From: a virus
Taxonomy: Duplodnaviria; Caudoviricetes
IMG/VR virus record: IMGVR_UViG_3300007512_001664
Coordinates: 136,820 to 200,819 of that record
Length of the DNA stretch: 64,000 nt
Direction: 5' to 3' (one strand)
A program made the position numbers and the translations under genes. This document shows, one piece after another, positions 1,077-28,993 of this stretch. Under the pieces are notes generated by a model. That model was given only the letters and a program-made list of their open reading frames with translations. It searched no databases and had not been told where the DNA came from. The number at the start of each line of letters is the position of its first letter. Position 1 is the stretch's first letter.

Positions 1077-1965
1077 TTTTAATCGCCTTGTTAATAATAT
1101 TTATTATATTTTCGTTATTATTAAACGATTCGCGCCATGAAGAATAGTTTCTCACAACAGACCACATGTTCAATTTCTTTGCTTCTTCTATAAACTTTTT
1201 ATAATCACTCTTATGTTTCTTGCATTTTTCTAATTGCTCTTCATATACTGGTACTTCGTCAGGATAGTAATCATAACCTGTAGTTAAGTCCATTAATTTT
1301 AAATTCCTCTCGTAAATAACTTGTTGTTCATCTGTTAATCGATTTAAATCTAATTTTTTAAATCGAGCAAGACCATATCTAGGTATTCCAGGTATATTAT
1401 CAGACTTATCACCTGTTACTGCTCTGTAATTTAAATATTGCTCTTTAGTTACTCCTGTATACTCTTCGAAGTTTTGTAACGTAACTATTTTCTTTTTTAT
1501 AGGGCTATAAATTCTAGTATCAACAGAGATTGTTTGTAGTAAATCTTTATCAGTGGTTACTATAACACTTTTACCGGGTAGGTGAGATGATAACCAAGAC
1601 ATTAAATCATCAGCCTCCATCCTTAACGGATACATATTATGTACACCTAATAAGGAAATAACATCTTGTATTTTTTCTGAGTATTCATGAACATCTTTGA
1701 ACTTATCGTCGTCTCTATTTGCTTTATACTCTACGGTAATAACTTCACTCCTGAAATTAGACGAAGGCCATTCTAACTTCTTATCCCATGTACAATAAAT
1801 TTGTTTTGGCTGAAACTTGTCTACATACGATTTTAAAGATCGTAAGAATAAAAATACTTGACCAGGACTATCTTTTTCGTCTAATTTGAAATTATTAGTC
1901 CAAAATATTCGGTATAAGAGGTTATTACCATCAATTATGAGATTGTTAGTTCCACCATTTTTCAT
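1063..1965 (-). CDS. rnh: RNase H / 5'-3' flap exonuclease (T4 rnh-like)
   Basis: IIDGNNLLYR, YKANR, MEADD, TTDKD and GDKSDNIPGI motifs. Confidence 0.92.
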   Translation of the reverse strand: MKNGGTNNLIIDGNNLLYRIFWTNNFKLDEKDSPGQVFLFLRSLKSYVDKFQPKQIYCTWDKKLEWPSSNFRSEVITVEYKANRDDDKFKDVHEYSEKIQDVISLLGVHNMYPLRMEADDLMSWLSSHLPGKSVIVTTDKDLLQTISVDTRIYSPIKKKIVTLQNFEEYTGVTKEQYLNYRAVTGDKSDNIPGIPRYGLARFKKLDLNRLTDEQQVIYERNLKLMDLTTGYDYYPDEVPVYEEQLEKCKKHKSDYKKFIEEAKKLNMWSVVRNYSSWRESFNNNENIINIINKAIKNAKS

Positions 1966-2950
1966 TTTTAATATACCACATTATAGTATATTTTAAATCA
2001 TCGGCAAATGTTTTTTTAGTTTCAGAAAATTCTAATTGATCTCCTGCTTTAATTATCATCGATTTATATATTGAATCACTTAAGCTATATCTAAGATCAT
2101 GACCTTTCCTATCCTCAGCAAAACTAATTAATTTTTTAGGTTTATCGAGTATGTCTAATATGAGATTTACAATTTCAATATTAGGTATTTCCGATTGATA
2201 GTGCGAGTCAGGAGCAAGGTTATATATTGTTCCTGAGGTTCCTAGTTTTAATACGTTATATATTTTTTCGCAATGATCTTTGACGTATATCCATTGACGT
2301 ATGTTATCACCTTTACCATATACCGGTATCTGTTCGTCGTTAGTAGCTTTTTGAGCGATAACTGGAATAAGTTTCTCGGGGTATTGCCTAGGACCAAAAT
2401 TATTTGTACATCTCGTTACGATAATATCTTTCTTATATGTTTTATGAAAAGATAATGCTAATAAATCAGCGCCTGCTTTTGTTGCAGAGTATATAGAAGA
2501 TGGTTCTAATAAGTCATCCTCTTCACTAGGGTTCGAATCAAATTGTAAACTACCATATACTTCATCTGTCCCTACTTGGAGAAATCTCGTATTGTCAGGT
2601 AATTGTTTTAATAATTCATACACACCTACATAATTACTATCAATAAAAACATCCCCGTCGTTAATACTATTATCTACGTGTGATTCAGCTGCGAAATTTA
2701 CAATATAATCATATTGTTTATCCAATTTAAAATCCGAGACACTTACATATATTATATCTAATTTATTACTAGACCCATCCGGGTGCTTATATAAATCCCA
2801 TAGATAATCTTCAGTGTTCTGTGATACACAATAGGCATAACTATCTATTATTGTTACATTACAGTTTTCACATTCACGGTGAAGTAGCTCTACGAAATGA
2901 CTTCCAATGAATCCCAAGCCACCTGTTACTAGGATGTTTTTATCTTTCAT
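1946..2950 (-). CDS. rmlB: dTDP/UDP-glucose 4,6-dehydratase
   Basis: TGGLGFIG, NFAAESHVDNS, TDEVYG, YSATK, RCTNNFGPRQYPEKLIP, DRKGHDLRYS. Confidence 0.95.
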   Translation of the reverse strand: MKDKNILVTGGLGFIGSHFVELLHRECENCNVTIIDSYAYCVSQNTEDYLWDLYKHPDGSSNKLDIIYVSVSDFKLDKQYDYIVNFAAESHVDNSINDGDVFIDSNYVGVYELLKQLPDNTRFLQVGTDEVYGSLQFDSNPSEEDDLLEPSSIYSATKAGADLLALSFHKTYKKDIIVTRCTNNFGPRQYPEKLIPVIAQKATNDEQIPVYGKGDNIRQWIYVKDHCEKIYNVLKLGTSGTIYNLAPDSHYQSEIPNIEIVNLILDILDKPKKLISFAEDRKGHDLRYSLSDSIYKSMIIKAGDQLEFSETKKTFADDLKYTIMWYIKNEKWWN

Positions 2951-3869
2951 CTGCTATTTCTTTAGTAAAATATGTTTCTTTTTTACCTAATATTCTAAAT
3001 AGTGATTCTCGTTCCGTTGGCATATCTAACCCACGTGCTTTTAATTTATCTATTGATAAAACGCAATTAGATCTATTAGCAACAATATGTTGTTTTAATT
3101 CATTGTAAGTAATAAACTTCCAATGAGGATTCCACAAACCATGCTCATCTAAAATGCTACAAACTTCAGATGTTTGAAGAGGTTCAGGGTTTACGCAATT
3201 ATAAACACCACCGGGTAAGTCTTCGATGTTAACTATTTTATTAATTACGACTAGTAAATCCTCAATAACAGTTTTAGAGTTTACATCGTTTAAGACGTTA
3301 TTGTATTTTAAAATCTTACTTAAGTAGTTTTTTTGTGAATTAAAATCATTACAAATAGGCATTCTTATGCGTAGAGTATAAACATTGCCAAAGTTGTTTA
3401 AACATAATTCTGCTGCATGTTTTGTCTTACTATACCAACTACTATCAGGGTTAGTTAACCCGAAATTTGGCTCGTCTTCTTCAGTAAATGATACTGTGTC
3501 AAGCACGTCTAATGTATCATATATACACCCGGAACTTACATTAATAAGTTTCGCGTTATGTTGAGTACAGAATTGAGCTAACATAGTAGGTAGTGTTACG
3601 TTCAAATCCCAGCATGTTTGTTTTTGTTCTTCACATGCGTCTACATTTGGAGAACCAGTAAAACCAACACAATTAATTACCCATTTGTTTTGTGATCCTC
3701 GGAACTCGGTTATTAAATTAGTAAATAATGTTTCTTTTAACTTTTCGGGTGAAGTATATGGATAGTTCGACAAGCGAACTACATCGTATATACCTTCTAA
3801 GTTCTCTTCAAAATGCTTATAAGCCTTCTTCCCAATATAACCGTTACCTAAGACAATTATTTTATTCAT
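2940..3869 (-). CDS. NDP-4-keto-6-deoxyglucose 3,5-epimerase/4-reductase (NRS/ER-type, RmlD-like SDR)
   Basis: GNGYIG, GFTGSPNVDACE, SSGCIY, FTEEDEPNF, YSKTK, LRIRMPI, NSKTV and NRSN match, from memory, the plant NRS/ER and mimivirus L780 pattern. Confidence 0.8.
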   Translation of the reverse strand: MNKIIVLGNGYIGKKAYKHFEENLEGIYDVVRLSNYPYTSPEKLKETLFTNLITEFRGSQNKWVINCVGFTGSPNVDACEEQKQTCWDLNVTLPTMLAQFCTQHNAKLINVSSGCIYDTLDVLDTVSFTEEDEPNFGLTNPDSSWYSKTKHAAELCLNNFGNVYTLRIRMPICNDFNSQKNYLSKILKYNNVLNDVNSKTVIEDLLVVINKIVNIEDLPGGVYNCVNPEPLQTSEVCSILDEHGLWNPHWKFITYNELKQHIVANRSNCVLSIDKLKARGLDMPTERESLFRILGKKETYFTKEIADER

Positions 3870-7063: not shown

Positions 7064-7338
7064 AAATCAATAGAATTTCTTTTGAGATATTTAGTTATAT
7101 ATTTACTTTTATACAAATAAGGATCATGTTGTAAAAATAATTTAACTAACTCAAAATTACTATCTAATAATAACGACGCTTTAAATAATTCTCTATACTT
7201 TTCTTCTTTAAGAACTAATAAAAATACATTGGCGAGATTAATTTTTCGGTTCTCGGAAATTGAAATAAAACTACATAATGACAAGAAAACATGTACAATA
7301 TCTTTTCGTTCTAAAATTGTATATGGACTGTCTGTCAT
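7060..7338 (-). CDS. hypothetical protein (92 aa)
   Basis: ATGA-type overlaps with both neighbours. Confidence 0.65.
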   Translation of the reverse strand: MTDSPYTILERKDIVHVFLSLCSFISISENRKINLANVFLLVLKEEKYRELFKASLLLDSNFELVKLFLQHDPYLYKSKYITKYLKRNSIDL

Positions 7339-8234
7339 TTTGTATCTAGTGGTTCGAATTGCTTGCTCAAAGAGAGCACATTATCGTTTAACATACCACC
7401 GGCTGCATATTCATGACCACCACCGTCGCATATCTTCTTAGCAAAAGTACTTAAATTAAAATCTATATTTCTATTTCTTCGGAGATATACTCTTTTGTTT
7501 TTTAAATTAATCATCATACATACATCGCAATCATAAGTATCAACAATATATTGACCTAAATCGTTAATATATTCATTTGCAAATGTACTAATAAAGTTAT
7601 ATTCCTTTCCACCTATAGATAATTTTGCTTTAAATAAATCTATGGTTTCTCTCATTTTTTTAAATTTATAAAAATGATAACTAATTATTTTATTTTGTTC
7701 GTTTGTGAATCCGAAGAAACCATTTTCAAAATCGTTAATAAAGTTTTGCAGCTTATCACCATTTTTGTACCATAGATAGAAATTTAATTTATTACTCTCC
7801 GGGTATTTTAATTCATAACAATCATAATCATTTGCAAATGTAATTAATTTTTTCTGTTCCTTAGTAAGATTTACATTTGGATATATATGATTTAATATTT
7901 GATATAAATGTTTACTGCATGATGGTTGATTTACATTTATATATGTTTTAGCAAAAGAATAATCATCCTCATGAGATTTATGATGATCAAAAATAATTAC
8001 ATTTTTTTTGTCTATTAAATCTTTAATTTCTGTAGTATCTAAATCAAAGAAGTATACTCTTTTATAATCCTCAATTTTATTATAATTGAGCCATCCTAAT
8101 AGTTTTTCACGTATGTTAGAAACCTTTAATGTAACAGCTTTTGGTTTAGTCTGTTTAAACCATGTATAAATTAAATAGCTACAACAACCGTCGAGATCTA
8201 GGTCGGTAAAAATTATTTCATCCTTATTATTCAT
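7335..8234 (-). CDS. DHH/DHHA1 family phosphoesterase (RecJ/NrnA-like)
   Basis: TDLDLDG, FFDL, FDHH and GGGHEYAAG motifs. Confidence 0.88.
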   Translation of the reverse strand: MNNKDEIIFTDLDLDGCCSYLIYTWFKQTKPKAVTLKVSNIREKLLGWLNYNKIEDYKRVYFFDLDTTEIKDLIDKKNVIIFDHHKSHEDDYSFAKTYINVNQPSCSKHLYQILNHIYPNVNLTKEQKKLITFANDYDCYELKYPESNKLNFYLWYKNGDKLQNFINDFENGFFGFTNEQNKIISYHFYKFKKMRETIDLFKAKLSIGGKEYNFISTFANEYINDLGQYIVDTYDCDVCMMINLKNKRVYLRRNRNIDFNLSTFAKKICDGGGHEYAAGGMLNDNVLSLSKQFEPLDTK

Positions 8235-8388: not shown

Positions 8389-9741
8389 TTACATCACTCT
8401 TCCGAATTGTACAGCGTCATCTTCCGCAGCGTTCACATCTTCATTTATATTCAAATCGTTATTTTCTGTAAGAGTAAGAGTGTTATAGTCTATAGACACT
8501 CGAGTACTACCCGTGTTAGAACCAAATCGATTTTTAATAATACCTATATGAAGAGCATCATCTTCTTCATCCTCTTCTGTTCTCCATATACTAACTATTG
8601 CATCAGCAGTAGCTCCTAGACCATAACTTTCACCAATAGCATCTAAACCAGGACCACCAGCGTTATTACCTGTACCGTACCCTGTTCTGTTTACTTGTGT
8701 TGCAGATACAATTGGACATTCAAAGGTATATGACATTGCTCTTACTTGTTCAGATATACTTTTTATTCGTTCATATGAATTATTACCATATGTACTTGCC
8801 ATTAAGTTTAAATAATCAAGTACAATAATATCAGGTTTAAATTTTTTGTTTATTAGTTTTTTTATAAAACCTTCTAATTGTGGAGGTGTAATTGAACTCG
8901 GAGCAAATTCTTTAATTATAATATTTCCTCGAGGGTGTGTTATTTTAAATTTACCTACTCTATCTCTCAATTCTTCGACGTGATCATCTAAATGATTTAT
9001 AGGTAATCCAGTAAGCTTAGATGTAATTCGTTTACAATAAATCATTTCTGACATTTCGAGAGAAATAACTAAAACATTTTTATCTTCTGCTGCAGCGTTA
9101 CTTGCTATATTACTCAAGAATATAGATTTTCCAACGTTAGTAGGTCCAGCAAAAATATACATACTACGCCCTTGTTCGAGGAATCCTCCTCCTAATCTAG
9201 TATCAAGCCAATCCCAGCCTGTTTTAATTTTTTCTTCCCGTGTCGTTAGGTCAGTAATATGTTGCTCTACATCTTTAAAATAATTATGACCTGTATTTGT
9301 CGTAATAGAGATGTTACATGCTTTTGAGAACTTATCATGAATGCTTTTTACATCTCTTTCTTTATTATCAACAATTTCTAAAAACGTATTAAACACAGCT
9401 TGTTCTTGTAAAAACTTCTCTGTGTAAGAAAGTAATAAGTCATTAGATAATTCTACTTCTAAAACATCAATGATTTTTTTACTTGCTTCGTAATGCTGTT
9501 TAAGTTGTGGTGTGTTTAAATATAATTGTAATTCAGTAATAGTCGGACGTCTATTATTCTTCCGATAAAGTGCTTGAATGATTTTAATTATTTGCTGAAA
9601 GTCTTTATTCTTAAAAAATTTATAATTAAGATTATCAATAATAGAATTTAGATAAACTTCGTCTTCAAGACAATTCTTAAAAACTACCTTTTCTAAATAT
9701 TCTAAATCTATATCTAAGTAATTACTTTCGTTTGTTAGCAT
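8389..9741 (-). CDS. gp41: replicative DnaB-like helicase (gp41)
   Basis: Walker A AGPTNVGKS, ISLEMSE, IVLDYLNL, SATQVNR, ESYGLGATAD, KNRFG. Confidence 0.95.
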   Translation of the reverse strand: MLTNESNYLDIDLEYLEKVVFKNCLEDEVYLNSIIDNLNYKFFKNKDFQQIIKIIQALYRKNNRRPTITELQLYLNTPQLKQHYEASKKIIDVLEVELSNDLLLSYTEKFLQEQAVFNTFLEIVDNKERDVKSIHDKFSKACNISITTNTGHNYFKDVEQHITDLTTREEKIKTGWDWLDTRLGGGFLEQGRSMYIFAGPTNVGKSIFLSNIASNAAAEDKNVLVISLEMSEMIYCKRITSKLTGLPINHLDDHVEELRDRVGKFKITHPRGNIIIKEFAPSSITPPQLEGFIKKLINKKFKPDIIVLDYLNLMASTYGNNSYERIKSISEQVRAMSYTFECPIVSATQVNRTGYGTGNNAGGPGLDAIGESYGLGATADAIVSIWRTEEDEEDDALHIGIIKNRFGSNTGSTRVSIDYNTLTLTENNDLNINEDVNAAEDDAVQFGRVM

Positions 9742-10423
9742 GTTCTAACAGAGTATTATAGAAGTATTCTTCTGATTTGCTATATTCTTCTGTGTGGTTG
9801 AGTAGGCCAGGTGATTCATGAATAATGTGAATAGGGGCAGTGGTTAAGCGCAAACCAGCTAAATGACAATCTAAACAAAATTTTAGATCATAATAATGGA
9901 ATCCTTTAAGGTTAGTATCAAATTTTATTTTTTTCTCGGAAATTGATTTTGTCCGAATTGCAAGAAACACTCCGTCTAATAATACTACTTCTTTAGGTGT
10001 TTGGCCGAAGATTGTAGGGGCATAATCTGTATTATTATGATAATGTGACACTATACCAGACATAGTATCTGGCTTACATAATAAATGCCATAAACAAGGT
10101 TTTTGAACTTGTAACTTACTTCCTCCAGCGACACCGATAATATCAAATCCTCGCTTAAACGCATTACGAATTTCTACTAAGAAATTTATGCTATCAATAA
10201 ATACATCATCATGTACAAAAAGGATACAGTCATATTTTTTAAAATTTTCTGGTATAAGATAATTATTATAAACAGCACACAATCCACTAGTATTTTTATA
10301 TGTAGGCTGTAAGTCGAAAGTAGTTATAGTGTTTTCATCGTGATGAGTTAAGCTTTTAGATAATCTAGTTGTTTTAAAGATGGCTTCAGTAGTTTGAGTT
10401 GCAACCGCAATTAAAGTTTTCAT
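9722..10423 (-). CDS. GT2-like glycosyltransferase (Glyco_tranf_2_5-type)
   Basis: LFVHDDV (DxD-like), IGVAG, LLDGVFLA, FHYYDLKFCL. Confidence 0.75.
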   Translation of the reverse strand: MKTLIAVATQTTEAIFKTTRLSKSLTHHDENTITTFDLQPTYKNTSGLCAVYNNYLIPENFKKYDCILFVHDDVFIDSINFLVEIRNAFKRGFDIIGVAGGSKLQVQKPCLWHLLCKPDTMSGIVSHYHNNTDYAPTIFGQTPKEVVLLDGVFLAIRTKSISEKKIKFDTNLKGFHYYDLKFCLDCHLAGLRLTTAPIHIIHESPGLLNHTEEYSKSEEYFYNTLLEHANKRK

Positions 10424-11058
10424 ATAAAAAATGGAGAATTTAATTTAAATGTATTAGTTTTAGTAAAGTTATTTTTACTAAAATTAAATTCATATACTGT
10501 ACCCTCTTCCACCATTTCCCATTCCGAATATGGCGCTGAACTAAATGATTTATTATCAGTAAATAATGTGGAACCGGATCTAAAAATACGTAACCTACCC
10601 ATATCTGGTTCATACATCCAGCATCCAAATGTTCCTTCAATTTCCGATAGAGCGTTTTGTATACCAGACATATATATCAACGGTAATATTATACTACTAT
10701 CTACTTTATTTACCTTACTTGATAATGTGTATTTTTCTTTTAATTTATCAAAATTTTGTAGTACGCCGTTATGCGCTAAATATGTATTTTTATATGAAAA
10801 TGGATGTGATGTATCAATATTAAAAGTTCTAACTTCTGTCGTAGGGGACTGTACATGTCCTAGGTAATATAAACAAAATGGATTTTCTTCTATATGTCTA
10901 TTAAAATCTTGTTCGTATTTCGTCATTACGCGGACATTATTTTTCATTCCGCTAGGAAACATCATTGTTACGCTACGTACAAAATTACCCCTTTCTGAGT
11001 TCTTTGTATATAACTCTCTAAATGTTTTAATATCTGTTGAACCAAAAATACCACACAT
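10420..11058 (-). CDS. class II (Ntn) glutamine amidotransferase, standalone
   Basis: N-terminal MCGIFG (nucleophilic Cys), LGH, HPF, LAHNGVL, VDS, EGTFG. Confidence 0.85.
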   Translation of the reverse strand: MCGIFGSTDIKTFRELYTKNSERGNFVRSVTMMFPSGMKNNVRVMTKYEQDFNRHIEENPFCLYYLGHVQSPTTEVRTFNIDTSHPFSYKNTYLAHNGVLQNFDKLKEKYTLSSKVNKVDSSIILPLIYMSGIQNALSEIEGTFGCWMYEPDMGRLRIFRSGSTLFTDNKSFSSAPYSEWEMVEEGTVYEFNFSKNNFTKTNTFKLNSPFFI

Positions 11059-11059
11059 A

Positions 11060-12016
11060 TTATTTTAATTGTATGAACTTTGTATCACTCAGGCAACTTA
11101 AATCTTTACACCCGGCGTATGAAATAGAGCTCTTAAGAGCTTTTTCGATTTCTTTTAATCTAATATTATACTCTGGAGCTAAGTCTATTGCTATCTCTCT
11201 CCCTTCAACGAAATTTAATTTATTTCCCTTTTGCATATATGATGTACTTCCATAATATTCCTTATACCCATCAACAATTTTAGCTGGTGAGTCTACACAC
11301 CCTGCAAAGAAAGAACCAGCCATTACACAGTCTGCTCCAGCAACTAATGCTTTTGCGACATCTCCAAATTCTCGACAACCACCATCGGCCATTATTTTAG
11401 CTTTTGTTTTATGTGAGGTAATTTTTAACAATGTTGAAAACATTGGTGTACCAAAGCCTGTTTTATATCTCGTAGTACAAATAACTCCAGATCCGATTCC
11501 TACTTTAATAACGTCAGCACCGGAGTCTTCTAAAAAATGGAACCCGTCGTATGTTCCAACATTACCAGCGATAACTATTACATCAGGTAAATTCCTTTTA
11601 ACGTATCTAATCATATTACCGACTTTTTGATGATGTCCGTGCGCAACGTCAATTGTAATAATATCAACTTTATAATTATTATCTATAATCGCTTCTAATT
11701 CTTGATATGATTTTTCATTTACCCCTATACTGACACTCACACAATTACAATTAAGCTCATTAAGTTGTCGCACTGTTTCAAATACATCCTGAAATCGATG
11801 CATAATATAAAAATAATTATTATCATCTAATTGCTTACAGAGTTTGAGATCTATTACCGTTTCCATGTTAGATGGAACAACTGGTAGATTAAATGTAAAC
11901 TTACCTAATTTAAAAGATGTGTCGGCGTTGTTTCGAGTATCTAATTGACTATATCCTGGTACTAATAAGATATCAGAATATTCTAGCTCTTTACCATGGT
12001 ATATCTGTTCGCTCAT
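11060..12016 (-). CDS. guaC: GMP reductase
   Basis: PVVPSNM, IDVAHGH, AGNV, KVGIGSGVICTT, ADGG, AGSFFAG, YYGSTS, FVEG, SSISYAG. Confidence 0.9.
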   Translation of the reverse strand: MSEQIYHGKELEYSDILLVPGYSQLDTRNNADTSFKLGKFTFNLPVVPSNMETVIDLKLCKQLDDNNYFYIMHRFQDVFETVRQLNELNCNCVSVSIGVNEKSYQELEAIIDNNYKVDIITIDVAHGHHQKVGNMIRYVKRNLPDVIVIAGNVGTYDGFHFLEDSGADVIKVGIGSGVICTTRYKTGFGTPMFSTLLKITSHKTKAKIMADGGCREFGDVAKALVAGADCVMAGSFFAGCVDSPAKIVDGYKEYYGSTSYMQKGNKLNFVEGREIAIDLAPEYNIRLKEIEKALKSSISYAGCKDLSCLSDTKFIQLK

Positions 12017-12677
12017 ATTCGATTGGGTCTTTGATTTTATTCTCTAAAAAGCCTTGTATACGTGAACTACAAGCAGTACAATAACCGCATGCAACTTCTT
12101 TACCTTCATAACAAGTCCAAGTGTCTTCAAAACGCACACCATTATCTAATCCCAGTTTTACGATTTCTCGTTTAGATAACTCAATTAACGGTGCTTCTAT
12201 TTTAATTAGATTTTTTCTATTTAAACTTGTAACGTTATTAATTTCAGTTAAAAATTCCTTACTACCATCCCAGTATCCAGCCTGACTATCTACCAAGGCT
12301 GATCCATGATAAACAGTATTAGCTCCGACCGCTTCAGCATATGAACATGCAATAGACAGCATCATCATATTACGAAATGGCACATAGTTTACAGTTTGAG
12401 CGTCTCCTAGAACATCTCTCGTATGAGCGACTTTAATTTTATTGTTTGTTAAGGAAGAAGTATTAGCAATAGTTTTAAAAAATTGTATATCTAATATTTT
12501 ATGTTGTTCGATACAATCATAATTAATTAATTGAAACCCTGCGAATTGAATTTCTTTACGATGCTTTTGACCGTAATCAAAAGTTATTGCATATATATCA
12601 TCATGTCGATCCGCTGCTATGCTTAGTATTACGGAACTATCTAAACCTCCTGAAATAGGTACAACTGCTTTACTCAT
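11991..12677 (-). CDS. queC: 7-cyano-7-deazaguanine (preQ0) synthase
   Basis: SGGLDS, FDYGQKH, VPFRN, TWTCYEG..CGYCTAC zinc site. Confidence 0.95.
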   Translation of the reverse strand: MSKAVVPISGGLDSSVILSIAADRHDDIYAITFDYGQKHRKEIQFAGFQLINYDCIEQHKILDIQFFKTIANTSSLTNNKIKVAHTRDVLGDAQTVNYVPFRNMMMLSIACSYAEAVGANTVYHGSALVDSQAGYWDGSKEFLTEINNVTSLNRKNLIKIEAPLIELSKREIVKLGLDNGVRFEDTWTCYEGKEVACGYCTACSSRIQGFLENKIKDPIEYERTDIPW

Positions 12678-13758
12678 CTTCTTGTTCTAATATAGCACCC
12701 TCGTCTAATGATTTACCATACCGGTATTTTTCATTTATAGAAGATTCTAACTTAGGTAATATAGATTTCCACGTCTCTTCGTCATTGCGCCAATTCTTAT
12801 AATAACCTAATTTTTTATCCCCCATACTATATGTAGAACCATTTTGTTGTACAATACCGTGAGATACGGCAATATCTTTTAATCCAGAATATTTTTCTAG
12901 ACCTGTTTTGAAATTTAAATATGCTTCCGCTTGTAAAAATGCTGGAATAAATCTATTTTTTACGGTAAGCATTCTAAGAGTAACTCCGGAATAGTTTCTA
13001 CTTTCTGATAGCGCCTCGTCGTTGTCGTTTGAAGCGTCAGTTCTTTCTTTTTTAGCTGCCATTTGGACTAATAAAGAAGCCATGTACATAGGGCCCGACC
13101 CACCAGCTTGTTGCTTGACTAAGGTAGGATGGAGTGCACCAGGATCAGCATATGTATGATTACTACATATAATAGTTGTACCGGTCACCGCGGCCTTATA
13201 TGTAATAATACGCATCATGGATTTTAGCTGTTTGGCCCGCAGCCCCATGTCCATGGCTCCTTTATTAGACTCAGCATCAAGAATTTCTTTTGATGATGCT
13301 AAATTACCTAATGAATCTATTGATATAATAAATTTTCCGTGAAGTTCTGGTTCATTTTCTACTTCATCTAAAAATGCCATTATTTGATTACGACAGTTTT
13401 CTACAGTATCTATTGGAACATACTTTACATTAGAAACATCTAGACCTACATTTTCTGCACCTTCTTTTTCAATAGCGACCTCTGTGTCAAATATTATAGG
13501 TATCATTCCTTGCTTTTGAGCTTTAGCGAGAATTTTATTTAAAATAAAAGTCTTACCGCATTGAGACTCTCCAGCGAAAATTGTAATTCTACCCTTAGGT
13601 ACGCCACCATGTAGTGACCCAGATAGGATAGAATTTAATACTAAACAACCTGTATCAATCCACTCTGTTACATTACTCAGAGTGTTTTTCTCTAAAGTAG
13701 TAGCATTGCTGTTAAGCTTTTGGAGCTTAGCAAATGCCTTATCAACCAGTTTTGACAT
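12670..13758 (-). CDS. uvsX: RecA-like recombinase (UvsX)
   Basis: DTGCLVLNSILSG, FAGESQCGKT, FDTE, IDSLGNL, SNHTY, GGSG, KNRF. Confidence 0.95.
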   Translation of the reverse strand: MSKLVDKAFAKLQKLNSNATTLEKNTLSNVTEWIDTGCLVLNSILSGSLHGGVPKGRITIFAGESQCGKTFILNKILAKAQKQGMIPIIFDTEVAIEKEGAENVGLDVSNVKYVPIDTVENCRNQIMAFLDEVENEPELHGKFIISIDSLGNLASSKEILDAESNKGAMDMGLRAKQLKSMMRIITYKAAVTGTTIICSNHTYADPGALHPTLVKQQAGGSGPMYMASLLVQMAAKKERTDASNDNDEALSESRNYSGVTLRMLTVKNRFIPAFLQAEAYLNFKTGLEKYSGLKDIAVSHGIVQQNGSTYSMGDKKLGYYKNWRNDEETWKSILPKLESSINEKYRYGKSLDEGAILEQEDE

Positions 13759-24515: not shown

Positions 24516-25682
24516 ATGAGTAAGTTTCTTAAAAAAATCGCTGAATTGACAACAGGTCATGATGATACGCACTCTACTGAGACTCAAACCCTTGCTAACC
24601 TAAGAAAAAAGCAGAAGGAGACGCCTAATGATCTTACTGATGATGAAAAGCGAGCATTAAAAGATGATGATGAAAGAACTAAAAAGCTCCAAACCAAGGT
24701 TCAACGGGATATACAGGCCTTAAATTCTTCAACAGAAGTAATTAACTCAATGCTCATCGAGGCTCCAGGAGATGAATTTGTTCCTAGACAAGGACCACCT
24801 GTTGGTGGTGAATTTGAACCAGCTATTCCGCCTCCTGGAGTTGGAGCTCCACCGTTACCGGATCCTGTTCAAGAGCCAGCTGAACCGTTAACGACAGAAG
24901 GAGAAACATTTTTAGTAAATCTTGCTCGTAAAGCATTACATATTAACTTAGATGATGTATTACTATCAGACGCTGATAGAGAACTTATTAATAAAGATGC
25001 TGAACCAGAAACTGCTAAAAAGGTAGCTAAAATTGTACACAAGATACTAGTCGATCAAGGATATACTGAAAGTTTTGTTAATAAAGCAGACATGGTCCTC
25101 GAGGATCTATTAAAAAAAAACGATAAAGTAGTTGTTCTTGTTCCTGGTAGCTTTAAACCACCTCATAAAGGTCATTATGAAATGGTCGAACATTATAGCC
25201 GAGCCTATCCTGATGGTCATGTACATGTTTTAATTTCTGCACCGTCTGCTAAGAGTGAGAGAAGAACTAAAGACGGTAAAGTAATTACTCCATCTGCTGC
25301 TGCGCAGATTTTTGAACTATACGTTCAACCTCTTAATAATGTAACAGTAAGTATTTCTGAATATCCGTCCCCAGTTACGGCAGCGTATGAATCTCTTAAG
25401 ACGTTAGATACTGGAACAACGGTAGTTTTAGGAGCTAGTACAAAAGATAATGATTGGAAGCGCTGGTCATATGCACGTCCATGGGCCGAGAAAGAAGGAT
25501 TAGGTTTAAATATCCTCGACCCGGAACAGACTGCAGTTAATGTTAGTACAAATCCATCAGGCCGTCCTTATAGCGCTAGTAATATTAGAGATAATTTTGA
25601 CGATTTTGAAAAAATAAGGACTGACATACCGGAGCATGTCAATCCTGAGGAGGTTAAGCAAGTTTTTGATTCTCTTCAGTAA
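24516..25682 (+). CDS. cytidyltransferase-like (HxGH) nucleotidyltransferase with long N-terminal extension
   Basis: PGSFKPPHKGH, LGASTKD, SASNIR; N-terminal half acidic and Pro-rich. Confidence 0.85.
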   Translation: MSKFLKKIAELTTGHDDTHSTETQTLANLRKKQKETPNDLTDDEKRALKDDDERTKKLQTKVQRDIQALNSSTEVINSMLIEAPGDEFVPRQGPPVGGEFEPAIPPPGVGAPPLPDPVQEPAEPLTTEGETFLVNLARKALHINLDDVLLSDADRELINKDAEPETAKKVAKIVHKILVDQGYTESFVNKADMVLEDLLKKNDKVVVLVPGSFKPPHKGHYEMVEHYSRAYPDGHVHVLISAPSAKSERRTKDGKVITPSAAAQIFELYVQPLNNVTVSISEYPSPVTAAYESLKTLDTGTTVVLGASTKDNDWKRWSYARPWAEKEGLGLNILDPEQTAVNVSTNPSGRPYSASNIRDNFDDFEKIRTDIPEHVNPEEVKQVFDSLQ

Positions 25683-26330
25683 TTATTTTAAATCTCTGAC
25701 AAAATCATAGAACTCTTGACGAGTTAAATCTGTTTTATCTAAAAACGCTCCTGACATTCTAGCAGTTTTCATAATACTATCATGCTTTACTCCACGAAGA
25801 CCAGCACAAGTATGATTAGCTGATACTAAAACAGCAACCCCTTTATTATCTTTACATACTTCATTCATATAATTATGAATTTGCATAGTTAAGTTTTCTT
25901 GTACTTGTGGTCTTCTTGAAAACCATTCAACAATTCGGTTAATTTTACTTAAACCAATCACCTTACCATCTTTACCTGGTATATAAGATACATGAGCTTG
26001 ACCGATAAACGGTAAATGGTGGTGAGAACAAAAAGAATTAACTTTAATATTACCTTGAAATACTAATCCATCATATTTATCAACATTATCAAATGCTGTG
26101 ATTTTAGGAGGTTCATTATAACAACCCTCAGCTAATTCATTAACAAACGCTTTTGCTACTCGTCTCGGTGTGTCTGCGCTGTTTGGATCATTTCTCCAGT
26201 CGAAACCTAAGGCATCCATATAACACTCATAAGCAGCAGAGGCCTTTTCAATAATTAATTCTTTTTCTTGTTCAGTTCTGGGCTTGTTACCATTAGCGTA
26301 TTGAAGTAAATCCTCATTCATATGAATCAT
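25683..26330 (-). CDS. folE: GTP cyclohydrolase I (true start probably Met at 26321)
   Basis: TPRRVAK, SFCSHHHLPF, GLSKINRIVEWFSRRPQVQE, HTCAGLRG. Confidence 0.96.
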   Translation of the reverse strand: MIHMNEDLLQYANGNKPRTEQEKELIIEKASAAYECYMDALGFDWRNDPNSADTPRRVAKAFVNELAEGCYNEPPKITAFDNVDKYDGLVFQGNIKVNSFCSHHHLPFIGQAHVSYIPGKDGKVIGLSKINRIVEWFSRRPQVQENLTMQIHNYMNEVCKDNKGVAVLVSANHTCAGLRGVKHDSIMKTARMSGAFLDKTDLTRQEFYDFVRDLK

Positions 26331-26841: not shown

Positions 26842-27327
26842 ATGAGTTTTACTAGTACAAAAATTATTGAACTCGGTAGTTGTGCTTTCCGACAACCAAA
26901 AGCAGAATCACATTGCAGATTTATACATGGATATAGATTAACTGCTAAGTTCTGGTTCGGGGCTAATCAATTAGATAAAAATAATTGGGTAGTTGATTTC
27001 GGTAGTTTAAAGCATCTTAAAAAAGTACTACAAGGTCAATTTGATCACACTCTAGTAATTGCTGCAGATGATCCTGCGATAAGAGCCTTTAAAATGTTAA
27101 ATGACGATGACATTGTGGATTTAAGAATTATGGATGGTGTTGGTATTGAGAAATTTGCTGAGTATTGTTTTAATACTGCTAATAATTTTATTAAAGAGAG
27201 TACAGAGGGTAGGTGCTGGGTAGATAAAGTCGAAGTATTTGAACACGAAAATAATTCTGCTATTTATACAGATAAAATGGTCACAACTATGAGATTTGTT
27301 GACCACACGGATCAAGATAATGGGTAA
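26842..27327 (+). CDS. queD: 6-carboxy-5,6,7,8-tetrahydropterin synthase
   Basis: CAFRQ..HCRFIHGY, VVDFG, FDHT, GIEKFA, VEVFE. Confidence 0.93.
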   Translation: MSFTSTKIIELGSCAFRQPKAESHCRFIHGYRLTAKFWFGANQLDKNNWVVDFGSLKHLKKVLQGQFDHTLVIAADDPAIRAFKMLNDDDIVDLRIMDGVGIEKFAEYCFNTANNFIKESTEGRCWVDKVEVFEHENNSAIYTDKMVTTMRFVDHTDQDNG

Positions 27328-27469
27328 AGGTAGTAAGCGCCGGAAAGAGGATACCAGTAAACTTAATGATAACTGGGATGACATAAAGTGGGATAAACCT
27401 AAGAAGAAGGAAGTAGAACCGAAGGCTCGAGACATAAAAGACTTATATTTAAATGACAAATCTTTATAA
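27320..27469 (+). CDS. small hypothetical protein (49 aa, MGKGSKRR..NWDDI)
   Basis: Manual translation; bridges queD and queE with overlaps at both ends. Confidence 0.6.
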   Translation: MGKGSKRRKEDTSKLNDNWDDIKWDKPKKKEVEPKARDIKDLYLNDKSL

Positions 27470-28214
27470 AGAAGATCTTAGTGATAAGACAATACTGCTA
27501 TCTGATGATAAAGTATTTTATACTGTAGAAGGAGAAGGAGAGTTTGTAGGATATCCTTCAGTCTTTATGCGATTATCTATGTGTAACCTTACATGTCAGG
27601 GTTTCGCTTCAGATGACTCTCCGCATGGTTGTGATAGTTATGTATCTTGGAGTGTAAAGAATAGAATTACAAATGCTGACTTATTACAACACTTAGAACA
27701 GGAAGGTTTTGAAAAGCATTTATATAACGGAGCTATATGGAAGATTACAGGCGGTGAGCCTTTAGTACAGCAGCCCGCATTGCTTAGGTTTTTAGCATAT
27801 ATGGAGGTAGAATGGGGTTGGGTACCTAGAATTGATTTTGAAACCAACGCTACAATTATGCCTGATAAAGAATGGATTAGAGTTGGTGCTACATTTACTA
27901 CTTCTCCTAAGCTTAGTAATAACGGTGACCCAGAAAATAGGAGATATAAACCTAATGTATTAGAATGGCATGCAAACCAGGGATCTGGTTTTAAATTCGT
28001 CATAAGTAAAGAATCAGATTTAGATGAAGTAATGAAAAAGTATGTTGATAAGTTTGATATACCTACAGGTCGTGTCTGGTTAATGCCTTGCGCTGGTAGT
28101 AGAAAAGAGCATATTGAAGTTGCTCCTATGGTTGCAGAGTTAGCTAAAAAGCATCACTTTAATTTTAGTCCTAGGCTGCATTTACTAGTATGGGATATGG
28201 CCTTAAAGGTATAA
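27453..28214 (+). CDS. queE: 7-carboxy-7-deazaguanine synthase (radical SAM)
   Basis: FYTVEGEG, FMRLSMCNLTC..GCDS, ITGGEPL, FETN, SPKL, FKFV, RLH. Confidence 0.93.
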   Translation: MTNLYKEDLSDKTILLSDDKVFYTVEGEGEFVGYPSVFMRLSMCNLTCQGFASDDSPHGCDSYVSWSVKNRITNADLLQHLEQEGFEKHLYNGAIWKITGGEPLVQQPALLRFLAYMEVEWGWVPRIDFETNATIMPDKEWIRVGATFTTSPKLSNNGDPENRRYKPNVLEWHANQGSGFKFVISKESDLDEVMKKYVDKFDIPTGRVWLMPCAGSRKEHIEVAPMVAELAKKHHFNFSPRLHLLVWDMALKV

Positions 28215-28234: not shown

Positions 28235-28993
28235 ATGAGGATTGCAATTAGTGGAACCGCGTGTCAGGGTAAAACTACTTTAATTAAAGACTTCTTAGAG
28301 CAATGGCCGAGTTATACTACCCCTAAAAAGACCTATAGAGACATAATTAAAGAAAATAATCTCGAGCATTCATCAAAAACTAATAAAAAAACACAAAAGA
28401 AAATATTAGATTTTATGATTAAAGAGCAAAAAAAATATCGTAGCTCTGATAATGTAATTTTTGATAGATGTCCACTAGATAATCTTGTATATAGCATGTG
28501 GGCAACCGAACAACCTGAGGTAGATATAGATGATGATTTTGTACAGGAATGTATTCCTCTCGTTAGAGAGAGTTTTCGTAATTTAGATATTATATTTTTT
28601 ACACCTATAACAAAAGTTGCTCCTGTTGAATTAACAGAAGACGATTTACGAGATACTGACCCTAAAGTTATAGAGGAAGTAGATAATATTTTTAAAGCTA
28701 TGCACCGAGAATACATGAATAATGATTCGAGTGTGTTTTTTATTAAAGATGATAAACCTGGTATTATAGAAGTATTTGGTAATCAGAGAGAACGTATACA
28801 AATACTTAAACTTTATATTGATGCTGAGGGAGATATACATCCGGGCGGCGATCTTATCGATGAAGATATGCTATCTGATATGAAAGCATTAAGTGGTGTG
28901 TGGGCAGATGTAGATCCTACAGAGCATTCTCATTTACGAAAAGCATTAGAAGAGCAAATTGAGAAAGATAAGGCGGGTCGTATGAATAAATAA
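28235..28993 (+). CDS. P-loop nucleotide kinase-like protein (AAA_28/dNMP-kinase-like)
   Basis: IAISGTACQGKTT, IFDRCPLDNLVY. Confidence 0.75.
   Translation: MRIAISGTACQGKTTLIKDFLEQWPSYTTPKKTYRDIIKENNLEHSSKTNKKTQKKILDFMIKEQKKYRSSDNVIFDRCPLDNLVYSMWATEQPEVDIDDDFVQECIPLVRESFRNLDIIFFTPITKVAPVELTEDDLRDTDPKVIEEVDNIFKAMHREYMNNDSSVFFIKDDKPGIIEVFGNQRERIQILKLYIDAEGDIHPGGDLIDEDMLSDMKALSGVWADVDPTEHSHLRKALEEQIEKDKAGRMNK

What the first reader, a model, noticed from the sequence alone, without database searches (positions are those of the whole stretch)
9722..12677. GT2-amidotransferase-GuaC-QueC block wedged between UvsX and the helicase: candidate elaborated 7-deazaguanine DNA base
Seen: four tightly coupled genes (queC, guaC, standalone class II GATase, GT2-like enzyme) in the core replication operon. 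Known: QueC makes preQ0; GAT-QueC fusions convert preQ0 to archaeosine; phages put 7-deazaguanines into DNA against restriction. Inference: the GATase acts as a split GAT-QueC giving dG+ or an amide. The co-transcribed GT may glycosylate the modified base, a combination I do not know to be described.
Basis: partly seen in the sequence, partly recalled or inferred. Interest (0 to 1): 0.8.

Follow-up and report, generated by a model that had tools for sequence, protein, structure and literature searches.

The report
Deazaguanine genes beside an independent glycosyltransferase
In an uncultured 200-kb marine T4-like phage, QueC and a small amidotransferase-like partner belong to a complete, already described kind of pathway that swaps guanine in DNA for a formylated 7-deazaguanine, while the sugar-transferase next to them stays in place in a relative that lacks the whole pathway, so a sugar-decorated base is unlikely.

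Summary
The four overlapping minus-strand genes are real: QueC, a type 2 GMP-reductase-like GuaC, a stand-alone class II (Ntn) amidotransferase-like protein (GAT) and a GT-A glycosyltransferase (GT), between UvsX and the gp41/DnaB helicase. The complete 200,819-bp genome also holds FolE, QueD and QueE (in the window) and a DpdA3-DpdN-kinase-QueF operon elsewhere. That operon is syntenic with Flavobacterium phage immuto_2-6A, whose DNA carries formyl-preQ1 in place of all G, so a 7-deazaguanine DNA base is well supported, but as a known kind. This scan had already noted that operon and the same triad on other DNA.

GAT tracks QueC. The same pair occurs in KVP40/nt-1 vibriophages, QueCs with a GAT partner share an altered active-site motif, and GAT is absent where the pathway is absent.

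GuaC is optional; two non-orthologous GMP reductase types sit in the same slot in different relatives.

GT does not track the pathway. A 118.7-kb syntenic relative has none of the nine pathway genes (nor GuaC) yet keeps an intact GT between UvsX and DnaB. Close GT homologues are fused to TPR repeats, and the fdPreQ1 phage lacks GT.

Verdict: new variant of a known system (split QueC/GAT, GMP-reductase accessory). A glycosylated deazaguanine is improbable (about 6%).

The parts
11991..12677 (-). QueC (PP-loop 7-cyano-7-deazaguanine synthase family) with a non-canonical YWDGS motif in place of PDCR
   Evidence: PF06508 2e-59 and TIGR00364 above cut-off. SGGLDS PP-loop and a four-Cys cluster are seen in the translation. 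Motif comparison.
11060..12016 (-). GuaC-like type 2 GMP reductase; optional accessory
   Evidence: IMPDH/GMPR 8e-61; NF003966 317 bits against a cut-off of 344. Absent from 55 of 78 related intervals. Distant relatives carry a type 1 GMP reductase in the same slot.
10420..11058 (-). Stand-alone class II (Ntn) amidotransferase-like protein, partner of QueC
   Evidence: MCGIFG N-terminus; GATase_6 6e-11. Invariant Cys2, Asn97-Gly98 and Asp120, but Gln70 where the glutamine-binding Arg is expected. Same family as KVP40.0125 and nt-1 VPFG_00173 (phrog_12378).
9722..10423 (-). GT-A fold glycosyltransferase (majastridin-like, HDD motif); acceptor unknown; independent of the que genes
   Evidence: PF13712 2.6e-13. 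Model pLDDT 93. Z 20.8 to 2qgi. Retained in the que-less relative.
12670..13758 (-). UvsX/RecA-like recombinase (upstream flank)
   Evidence: RecA 3.7e-17
8389..9741 (-). DnaB/gp41-like replicative helicase (downstream flank)
   Evidence: DnaB_C 2.5e-27
25683..26330 (-). FolE, GTP cyclohydrolase I (first step towards preQ0)
   Evidence: PF01227 2.7e-47
26842..27327 (+). QueD (PTPS family)
   Evidence: PF01242 1.1e-17
27453..28214 (+). QueE-like radical SAM protein (weak matches)
   Evidence: Fer4_12 0.004. Five QueE NCBIfam models at 8e-13 to 2.5e-6, all below their cut-offs.

Best explanation
The block is a composite, not one four-enzyme pathway.

(1) QueC and the stand-alone Ntn amidotransferase-like protein work together at the CDG-to-preQ0 step of a complete DpdA3-type 7-deazaguanine DNA-modification system. 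The GAT most likely supplies the nitrogen that QueC needs, as in asparagine synthetase B or the fused Gat-QueC. QueF then reduces preQ0 to preQ1, DpdN formylates it, and DpdA3 places the base in DNA in place of guanine, as in Flavobacterium phage immuto_2-6A (formyl-preQ1, 100% of G).

(2) GuaC is an optional purine-pool enzyme (GMP to IMP plus ammonia). It was recruited at least twice to this slot. It probably handles the guanine/GMP displaced by full G replacement or rebalances purines for a 30% GC genome.

(3) The GT-A enzyme is a clade-wide gene of the replication module that uses a nucleotide sugar on an unknown acceptor. It does not depend on 7-deazaguanine.

Shown: gene content, homology, fold, synteny and the presence/absence pattern across relatives. 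Inferred: every chemical step, the identity of the base, and the physical coupling of QueC and GAT.
For: Pathway:
- FolE, QueD and QueE-like genes lie in the window.
- A DpdA3-like protein is 46% identical to immuto DpdA3 and about 40% to the CP220 family.
- DpdN is 40% identical to immuto26A_67.
- A bimodular QueF is present.
- The operon DpdA3-DpdN-x-kinase-QueF is syntenic with immuto and conserved in distant relatives.
- No PF01702 TGT and no DUF6610 are found.
- immuto DNA is fully fdPreQ1-substituted (PMC10516641).

GAT with QueC:
- In all 78 related intervals that hold QueC, GAT follows it.
- In lineage G002, GAT stays with QueC while GT has moved.
- KVP40 and nt-1 have the same family directly behind QueC, without any GT.
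- nt-1 DNA holds mainly dPreQ0 (PMC6884629).
- QueCs with a GAT partner or fusion have YWDGS, YWDCT or YPDNE. Partner-less QueCs (CP220, immuto, G003:C21) keep PDCR.
- GAT is lost together with the que genes in the que-less relative.

GuaC:
- It is absent in 55 of 78 intervals.
- Type 2 here versus bona fide type 1 (540-564 bits, above cut-off) in L056, L060 and L069, in the same slot.
- GuaC occurs in many phages without que genes.

GT:
- The 118.7-kb syntenic contig G003:C2 has no QueC, GAT, GuaC, FolE, QueD, QueE, DpdA3, DpdN or QueF (best E at least 0.14).
- It still has an intact GT (275 bits) between UvsX and DnaB.
- immuto, CP220 and phiST lack GT and GAT.
Against: - No chemistry was measured, and the clade has no cultured member (best UvsX identity to cultured phages is about 33%).
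- The GAT family has an invariant Gln where PurF and GlmS have the Arg that binds the glutamine carboxylate (the motif comparison is from my own knowledge). Glutamine use is therefore not assured.
- The QueC+GAT complex prediction gave no verdict.
- GAT-GT adjacency (median gap 3 nt) is tighter than QueC-GAT adjacency (median 930 nt, with opposite-strand cargo between them).
- In lineage G001 the GT lies within 5 kb of QueF and the kinase.
- The que-less contig is incomplete, perhaps about 60% of a genome.
- The QueC motif correlation rests on few lineages. The KVP40 pair and this clade's pair may share one origin.
Confidence: 0.55

Rival explanations
1. QueC plus GAT act as a split Gat-QueC and make the amidine base archaeosine (G+), which DpdA3 inserts as dG+, as in phage 9g. 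The GT is unrelated.
For: - The fused Gat-QueC of 9g gives dG+ when expressed with DpdA (PMC6884629).
- The QueC here and the 9g QueC domain both depart from the canonical PDCR motif.
- nt-1, which has the same pair, contains a trace of dG+.
Against: - QueF and DpdN are conserved with DpdA3 in this clade and match the fdPreQ1 phage. Both need preQ0, not G+.
- nt-1 DNA is mainly dPreQ0, and its dG+ is ascribed to ArcS.
- The GAT is in phrog_12378, not in the 9g Gat-QueC family phrog_10428. Its pairwise E to the 9g Gat domain is only 0.028.
- The gene order is QueC then GAT, the reverse of the fusion.
Confidence: 0.12
2. One reading: GAT converts the QueC product to an amide or amidine, and the co-transcribed GT glycosylates the 7-deazaguanine base, giving a new sugar-bearing base in DNA.
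For: - GAT and GT overlap by 4 nt here and are adjacent in 72 of 78 intervals.
- GT sits among replication genes.
- In lineage G001 it lies next to the hub gene, near QueF and the kinase.
- RmlB-like and RmlD-like sugar-nucleotide genes lie in the same strand run.
- Other follow-ups of this scan report glycosyltransferases travelling with deazaguanine clusters in other phages. I did not test this, and the family relation is unknown.
- I found no ThyA-type hydroxymethylase that would provide the classical 5hm-pyrimidine acceptor.
Against: - The syntenic relative without any que/dpd gene keeps an intact GT at the same position.
- The fdPreQ1 phage immuto and the QueC+GAT vibriophages lack the GT.
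- Close GT homologues are fused to TPR repeats, as in protein-directed glycosyltransferases, and never to GAT or QueC.
- The family pI is near neutral (median 6.5).
- Formyl-preQ1 offers no hydroxyl acceptor (chemistry, from my own knowledge).
Confidence: 0.06
3. GAT works with GT rather than with QueC, for example by making an amino-sugar or glycosylamine donor or acceptor. Its position next to QueC is incidental.
For: GAT-GT adjacency is tighter than QueC-GAT adjacency. Opposite-strand cargo, including a UDP-galactopyranose mutase in L168, separates QueC from GAT in many relatives.
Against: - The que-less relative lost GAT but kept GT.
- KVP40 and nt-1 have QueC-GAT without GT.
- In G002, GAT stays between UvsX/QueC and DnaB while GT moved about 40 kb away.
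- No GAT-GT fusions occur among the closest GT relatives.
Confidence: 0.08
4. The que genes serve tRNA queuosine or another small-molecule use rather than DNA modification.
For: Many marine phages carry que genes whose role has not been measured. No chemistry is available here.
Against: A DpdA3-family DNA transglycosylase with DpdN and QueF is present and conserved. No tRNA-type TGT was found. In published work, all tested DpdA3 phages replace G completely (PMC10516641).
Confidence: 0.04

Closest known systems
[quoted passage not shown]
   Same: All seven gene families are present. DpdA3 is 46%, DpdN 40% and QueF 43% identical. The operon order DpdA3-DpdN-kinase-QueF is the same.
   Different: Here QueC sits in the replication operon with a GAT partner and has a non-canonical YWDGS motif, whereas immuto QueC keeps PDCR and has no GAT. 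A GMP reductase and a GT-A gene are interleaved. The host phage is a T4-like myovirus with PolB. The base itself has not been measured.
Gat-QueC fusion of Enterobacteria phage 9g and Crenarchaeota (archaeosine, dG+; PMC6884629)
   Same: A class II Ntn domain is combined with QueC. The QueC part departs from the PDCR motif. QueC is 31% identical to the 9g QueC domain.
   Different: There are two separate genes in the order QueC then GAT. The GAT is only marginally similar to the 9g Gat domain (E 0.028) and falls in a different PHROG. The genome also has QueF and DpdN, which predict a preQ1 derivative, not G+.
QueC plus KVP40.0125 / nt-1 VPFG_00173 pair of KVP40-like vibriophages
   Same: The stand-alone Ntn protein belongs to the same family over its full length (25-26% identity, E 4e-12 to 5e-13, phrog_12378). 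It lies directly behind QueC. The QueC motif is YWDCT.
   Different: The vibriophages use DpdA2 and ArcS and modify under 1% of G (mainly dPreQ0). They have no GT and no GuaC at the locus. The Ntn protein is annotated as hypothetical, and the two 7-deazaguanine papers I read name no stand-alone Gat protein beside QueC.
Majastridin (ORF6 of the Rhodobacter blasticus ATP synthase operon; PDB 2qgi and 2nxv), a GT-A protein that binds UDP
   Same: Best structural match of the GT model: Z 20.8, rmsd 2.8 A over 204 residues. It is also a single-domain GT-A of about 240 residues.
   Different: Only 18% identity. Majastridin's own acceptor is unknown, so the match gives the fold and the nucleotide-sugar binding, not the function.
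T4 alpha- and beta-glucosyltransferases (DNA 5hmC glucosylation)
   Same: An early phage glycosyltransferase encoded near uvsX in the replication region (T4 gene order is from my own knowledge).
   Different: The T4 enzymes have a GT-B fold and need 5-hydroxymethylcytosine. This genome has no ThyA-family hydroxymethylase. No DNA substrate is indicated for the GT here.

Membership tests
QueC (7-cyano-7-deazaguanine synthase, TIGR00364/PF06508) | Profile score above the curated cut-off | tested here: met
   TIGR00364 177.9 bits against 150.3; PF06508 201 bits against 22
QueC (7-cyano-7-deazaguanine synthase, TIGR00364/PF06508) | PP-loop SGGxDS and C-terminal four-Cys zinc site | tested here: met
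   ISGGLDSS at residues 8-15, and C189, C197, C200, C203 in the translation. That these residues define the family is from my own knowledge.
QueC (7-cyano-7-deazaguanine synthase, TIGR00364/PF06508) | Conserved (Y/F)PDCR active-site motif | tested here: not met
   YWDGS here and across the clade. PDCR is kept in CP220, immuto and G003:C21 QueC. The functional meaning is unknown.
Class II (Ntn) glutamine amidotransferase | N-terminal nucleophile Cys directly after Met; Asn-Gly oxyanion hole; Asp binding the amino group | tested here: met
   M1-C2-G3-I4-F5-G6, N97-G98 and D120 are invariant in 20 sequences. GATase_6 42.9 bits against 27.
Class II (Ntn) glutamine amidotransferase | Arg of the GH-x-R-x-x-T motif that binds the glutamine carboxylate (Arg73 in PurF and GlmS) | tested here: not met
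   Invariant Gln70 at that position. An invariant Arg77 lies seven residues later. The PurF/GlmS motif is from my own knowledge.
Gat-QueC (fused archaeosine-type enzyme) | Gat and QueC domains in one polypeptide, Gat at the N-terminus | tested here: not met
   Two ORFs, with QueC upstream and GuaC between them. Different PHROG from 9g Gat-QueC.
GMP reductase (GuaC) | Equivalog model above cut-off; catalytic Cys in the G-x-x-C-T-T-R loop | tested here: inconclusive
   NF003966 316.8 bits, below the cut-off of 344. The loop GVICTTR is present. Relatives' type 1 copies exceed their cut-off.
GT-A fold nucleotide-sugar glycosyltransferase (Glyco_tranf_2_5) | GT-A Rossmann-like fold with an acidic DxD-type motif after a beta-strand | tested here: met
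   pLDDT 93; Z 20.8 to 2qgi-UDP and Z 14-16 to GalNAc-T2, SpsA and others. FVHDD with invariant H71 and D73. PF13712 50.6 bits against 27.
GT-A fold nucleotide-sugar glycosyltransferase (Glyco_tranf_2_5) | Glycosyl transfer to a defined acceptor | not testable with these tools
   Donor and acceptor are unknown. The only indirect clues are the TPR fusions in homologues and the retention of GT without que genes.
DpdA3-type 7-deazaguanine DNA modification (fdPreQ1 subtype) | DpdA3 transglycosylase plus FolE, QueD, QueE, QueC, QueF and DpdN in one genome | tested here: met
   DpdA3, DpdN and QueF lie at genome positions 10,372-13,617, outside the window.
DpdA3-type 7-deazaguanine DNA modification (fdPreQ1 subtype) | dG replaced by fdPreQ1 in virion DNA | not testable with these tools
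   Only assembled metagenome contigs exist for this phage: no raw reads and no isolate.

The most novel reading that the evidence does not exclude
The tightly coupled GAT-GT pair elaborates the QueC product, so that the phage DNA carries a sugar-bearing 7-deazaguanine (for example an N-glycosylated amide, amidine or aminomethyl side chain). On this reading, the GT kept in the que-less relative has been re-used for another acceptor.
Probability: 0.06. Interest if true: 0.85.

Novelty: new variant of a known kind. Interest (0 to 1): 0.4.

Why it matters
A very large, uncultured clade of marine and freshwater T4-like phages carries the DpdA3/fdPreQ1-type gene set. Complete guanine replacement may therefore be common in the sea, which matters for restriction, CRISPR and sequencing-based surveys.

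Three points are new and testable:
- A split QueC plus Ntn-amidotransferase unit goes with a changed QueC active-site motif. It is shared with KVP40/nt-1 phages, where it has gone unremarked. It may make preQ0 synthesis independent of free ammonium.
- Two different GMP reductase types are found in the same slot, which links purine-pool handling to full G replacement.
- A presence/absence comparison across relatives separates the neighbouring glycosyltransferase from the pathway. This guards against over-reading gene adjacency as a new hypermodified base.

Tried and rejected
- Complex prediction of QueC with GAT gave no verdict (score 0.13). It is not evidence either way.
- I looked for Rosetta-stone fusions of the GT with GAT or QueC among the 150 best of 4,080 related clusters. 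There were none; the fusion partners found were TPR repeats or unidentified.
- I first assumed that phrog_4736 was the Gat-QueC family. Scanning 9g gp06 showed that it is phrog_10428, so that argument was dropped.
- I tested whether the GT could be a hidden DpdA. It shows no similarity to phiST DpdA3, and the real DpdA3 lies elsewhere in the genome.
- I tested whether the 261-aa gene upstream of the relocated GT in lineage G001 is a DpdA. It shows no similarity.
- G003:C21 (weak DpdA-like gene, QueC, FolE) was considered as the missing part of the que-less phage. It was rejected because its GC is 41.5% against 29%.
- The second PTPS-like gene was compared with phiST DpdL: no similarity.
- megablast and tblastn of the block and of the GT against cultured phages found nothing.
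- The sequencing-run search found only marine metagenome contigs, with no RNA and no raw reads. Expression and base-calling signatures could therefore not be examined.
- The promoter and terminator scan was not above chance.

Full report
**Observation.** The window is the last 64 kb of a complete 200,819-bp virus record with terminal repeats. At 9722-12677 there are four minus-strand ORFs:
- QueC (11991-12677).
- A GMP-reductase-like protein (11060-12016).
- A class II amidotransferase-like protein starting MCGIFG (10420-11058).
- A GT-A protein (9722-10423).

They lie between a UvsX/RecA-like gene and a DnaB/gp41-like helicase, with PolB upstream. The genes overlap or abut: 8, 26, -1, 4 and 20 nt. 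Promoter-like and terminator-like sites are not above chance.

**The DNA-modification system.**
- The window also encodes FolE, QueD and a weak QueE.
- No tRNA-type TGT and no DUF6610/DpdA4 is present.
- A 272-aa protein at genome 12,799-13,617 matches phiST DpdA3 (E 8e-10). It is 46% identical to the DpdA3 of Flavobacterium phage immuto_2-6A and about 40% to the Campylobacter CP220 family.
- Directly downstream lie a formyltransferase 40% identical to immuto DpdN, a 116-aa ORF, an AAA_28 kinase and a bimodular QueF. This is the immuto order.
- The same operon occurs in distant relatives.
- immuto DNA has all dG replaced by formyl-preQ1, and DpdA3 phages replace G completely (PMC10516641).

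A 7-deazaguanine DNA base is therefore well supported, most likely fdPreQ1. It is of a described kind, and another follow-up of this scan had already reported that operon.

**How widespread the block is.** Searches with GT and GAT retrieved about 150 viral contigs. Among 79 distinct UvsX-to-DnaB intervals, 23 hold QueC+GuaC+GAT+GT, 55 hold QueC+GAT+GT, and 1 holds GT alone. UvsX identity goes down to 45%. The nearest cultured phages are at about 33%, so the clade is uncultured. The sequence occurs in marine metagenomes of 11 studies. Because the queries were GT and GAT, these counts cannot show QueC-only genomes.

**GAT goes with QueC.**
- The GAT family keeps Cys2, Asn97-Gly98 and Asp120 invariant.
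- It belongs end to end to the family of KVP40.0125 and nt-1 VPFG_00173 (phrog_12378). In those vibriophages the gene directly follows QueC, with no GT at the locus.
- nt-1 DNA was measured and holds mainly dPreQ0 (PMC6884629).
- In lineage G002, QueC and GAT remain between UvsX and DnaB while the GT has moved.
- QueCs with a GAT partner or fusion have YWDGS (this clade), YWDCT (KVP40) or YPDNE (9g). Partner-less QueCs (CP220, immuto, G003:C21) keep PDCR. This extends a first-reader note on another genome.

Caveats:
- The GAT has Gln where PurF and GlmS have the glutamine-binding Arg.
- Its similarity to the 9g Gat domain is marginal.
- The complex prediction gave no verdict.

**GuaC is an accessory.** It is missing from most relatives. 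Where present in distant relatives (L056, L060, L069) it is a bona fide type 1 GMP reductase (540-564 bits, above cut-off). The copy here is type 2 (317 bits, just below cut-off), and the two are only 31-33% identical. Two non-orthologous reductase types thus occupy the same slot, which suggests separate captures and a selective link to the pathway. The link could be disposal or recycling of displaced guanine/GMP, or purine rebalancing. That is inference only. The slot also collects unrelated opposite-strand cargo, including a UDP-galactopyranose mutase, and GuaC occurs in many phages without que genes.

**The GT is independent of the pathway.**
- The model (pLDDT 93) is a GT-A fold closest to the majastridin-UDP structure (Z 20.8), with an invariant HDD motif.
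- It has no PHROG family and no hit in cultured phages.
- The decisive comparison is contig G003:C2 (118,691 bp, GC 29%, PolB 41% identical). It is syntenic with this genome across all three loci that hold deazaguanine genes here.
- That contig has no detectable QueC, GAT, GuaC, FolE, QueD, QueE, DpdA3, DpdN or QueF (best E at least 0.14; profile searches empty).
- It nevertheless keeps an intact GT (275 bits, all invariant residues) between UvsX and DnaB.
- The only que genes in that assembly lie on contigs with about 39-41% GC, so they belong to something else.
- The GT family is large (4,080 clusters). Some close relatives are fused to TPR repeats, as in protein-directed glycosyltransferases, and none to GAT or QueC.
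- The family pI is near neutral.
- There is no ThyA-type hydroxymethylase in the genome.
- The phage has RmlB-like and RmlD-like genes in the same strand run. Earlier notes also report a 25-kb glycan island, so sugar donors and other possible acceptors abound.

**Verdict.** The block does feed a 7-deazaguanine DNA modification, and GAT is a split partner of QueC.

I found no paper describing a glycosylated 7-deazaguanine or the QueC/GAT pair. Other notes of this scan claim glycosyltransferases linked to deazaguanine clusters in other phages. I did not test those claims, and they keep a small probability on the novel reading.

Noticed in passing
window 1946-3869 (- strand): An RmlB-like dTDP-glucose 4,6-dehydratase (316 bits, cut-off 365) and an RmlD-like reductase lie in the same strand run as the replication genes, downstream of gp32. 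Homologues are kept in lineage G002. They could supply a 6-deoxyhexose donor for the GT.
   Followed up: partly
G000:C1:42093-42647 and the next gene (L001:1489-2749): A second PTPS/QueD-like protein (PF01242 1.5e-22) sits directly before a Methyltransf_9-like methyltransferase. It is not similar to phiST DpdL. Its role is unknown.
   Followed up: partly
L153:6001-6609 (KVP40.0125) and L214:6599-7207 (nt-1 VPFG_00173): KVP40-like vibriophages carry a stand-alone Ntn amidotransferase-like gene directly behind QueC. It is annotated as hypothetical, and the two 7-deazaguanine papers I read name no stand-alone Gat protein beside QueC.
   Followed up: yes
L164:8376-9281, L172:8344-9276, L053:2946-3821, L083:7019-7957 and others: In most distant relatives, an opposite-strand gene of about 300 aa with no Pfam family sits between QueC and GAT (or between GAT and GT). 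L168 also carries a UDP-galactopyranose mutase there, and L186 a glycine-rich protein. The slot behaves as a cargo hotspot.
   Followed up: partly
L128 / L158 (contig G001) and L154 (G002): In another lineage the GT homologue (46-47% identical) sits back to back with the baseplate-hub gene, within 5 kb of QueF and the AAA_28 kinase. No DpdA3 or DpdN is detectable on that fragment; a metallophosphoesterase lies there instead.
   Followed up: partly
whole genome G000: No ThyA-family and no ThyX thymidylate synthase was found in the complete 200-kb genome, which is unusual for a T4-like phage.
   Followed up: no
window 24516-25682 and 28235-28993: A 388-aa protein with a cytidylyltransferase-like domain and a 252-aa AAA_28/dNK-like kinase flank the FolE-QueD-QueE group. 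They may be NadR-like NAD salvage genes or nucleotide kinases. The kinase is kept in the que-less relative.
   Followed up: no
window 7335-8234 (- strand): A 299-aa DHH/DHHA1 (RecJ-like) protein is conserved directly after the helicase throughout the clade.
   Followed up: no
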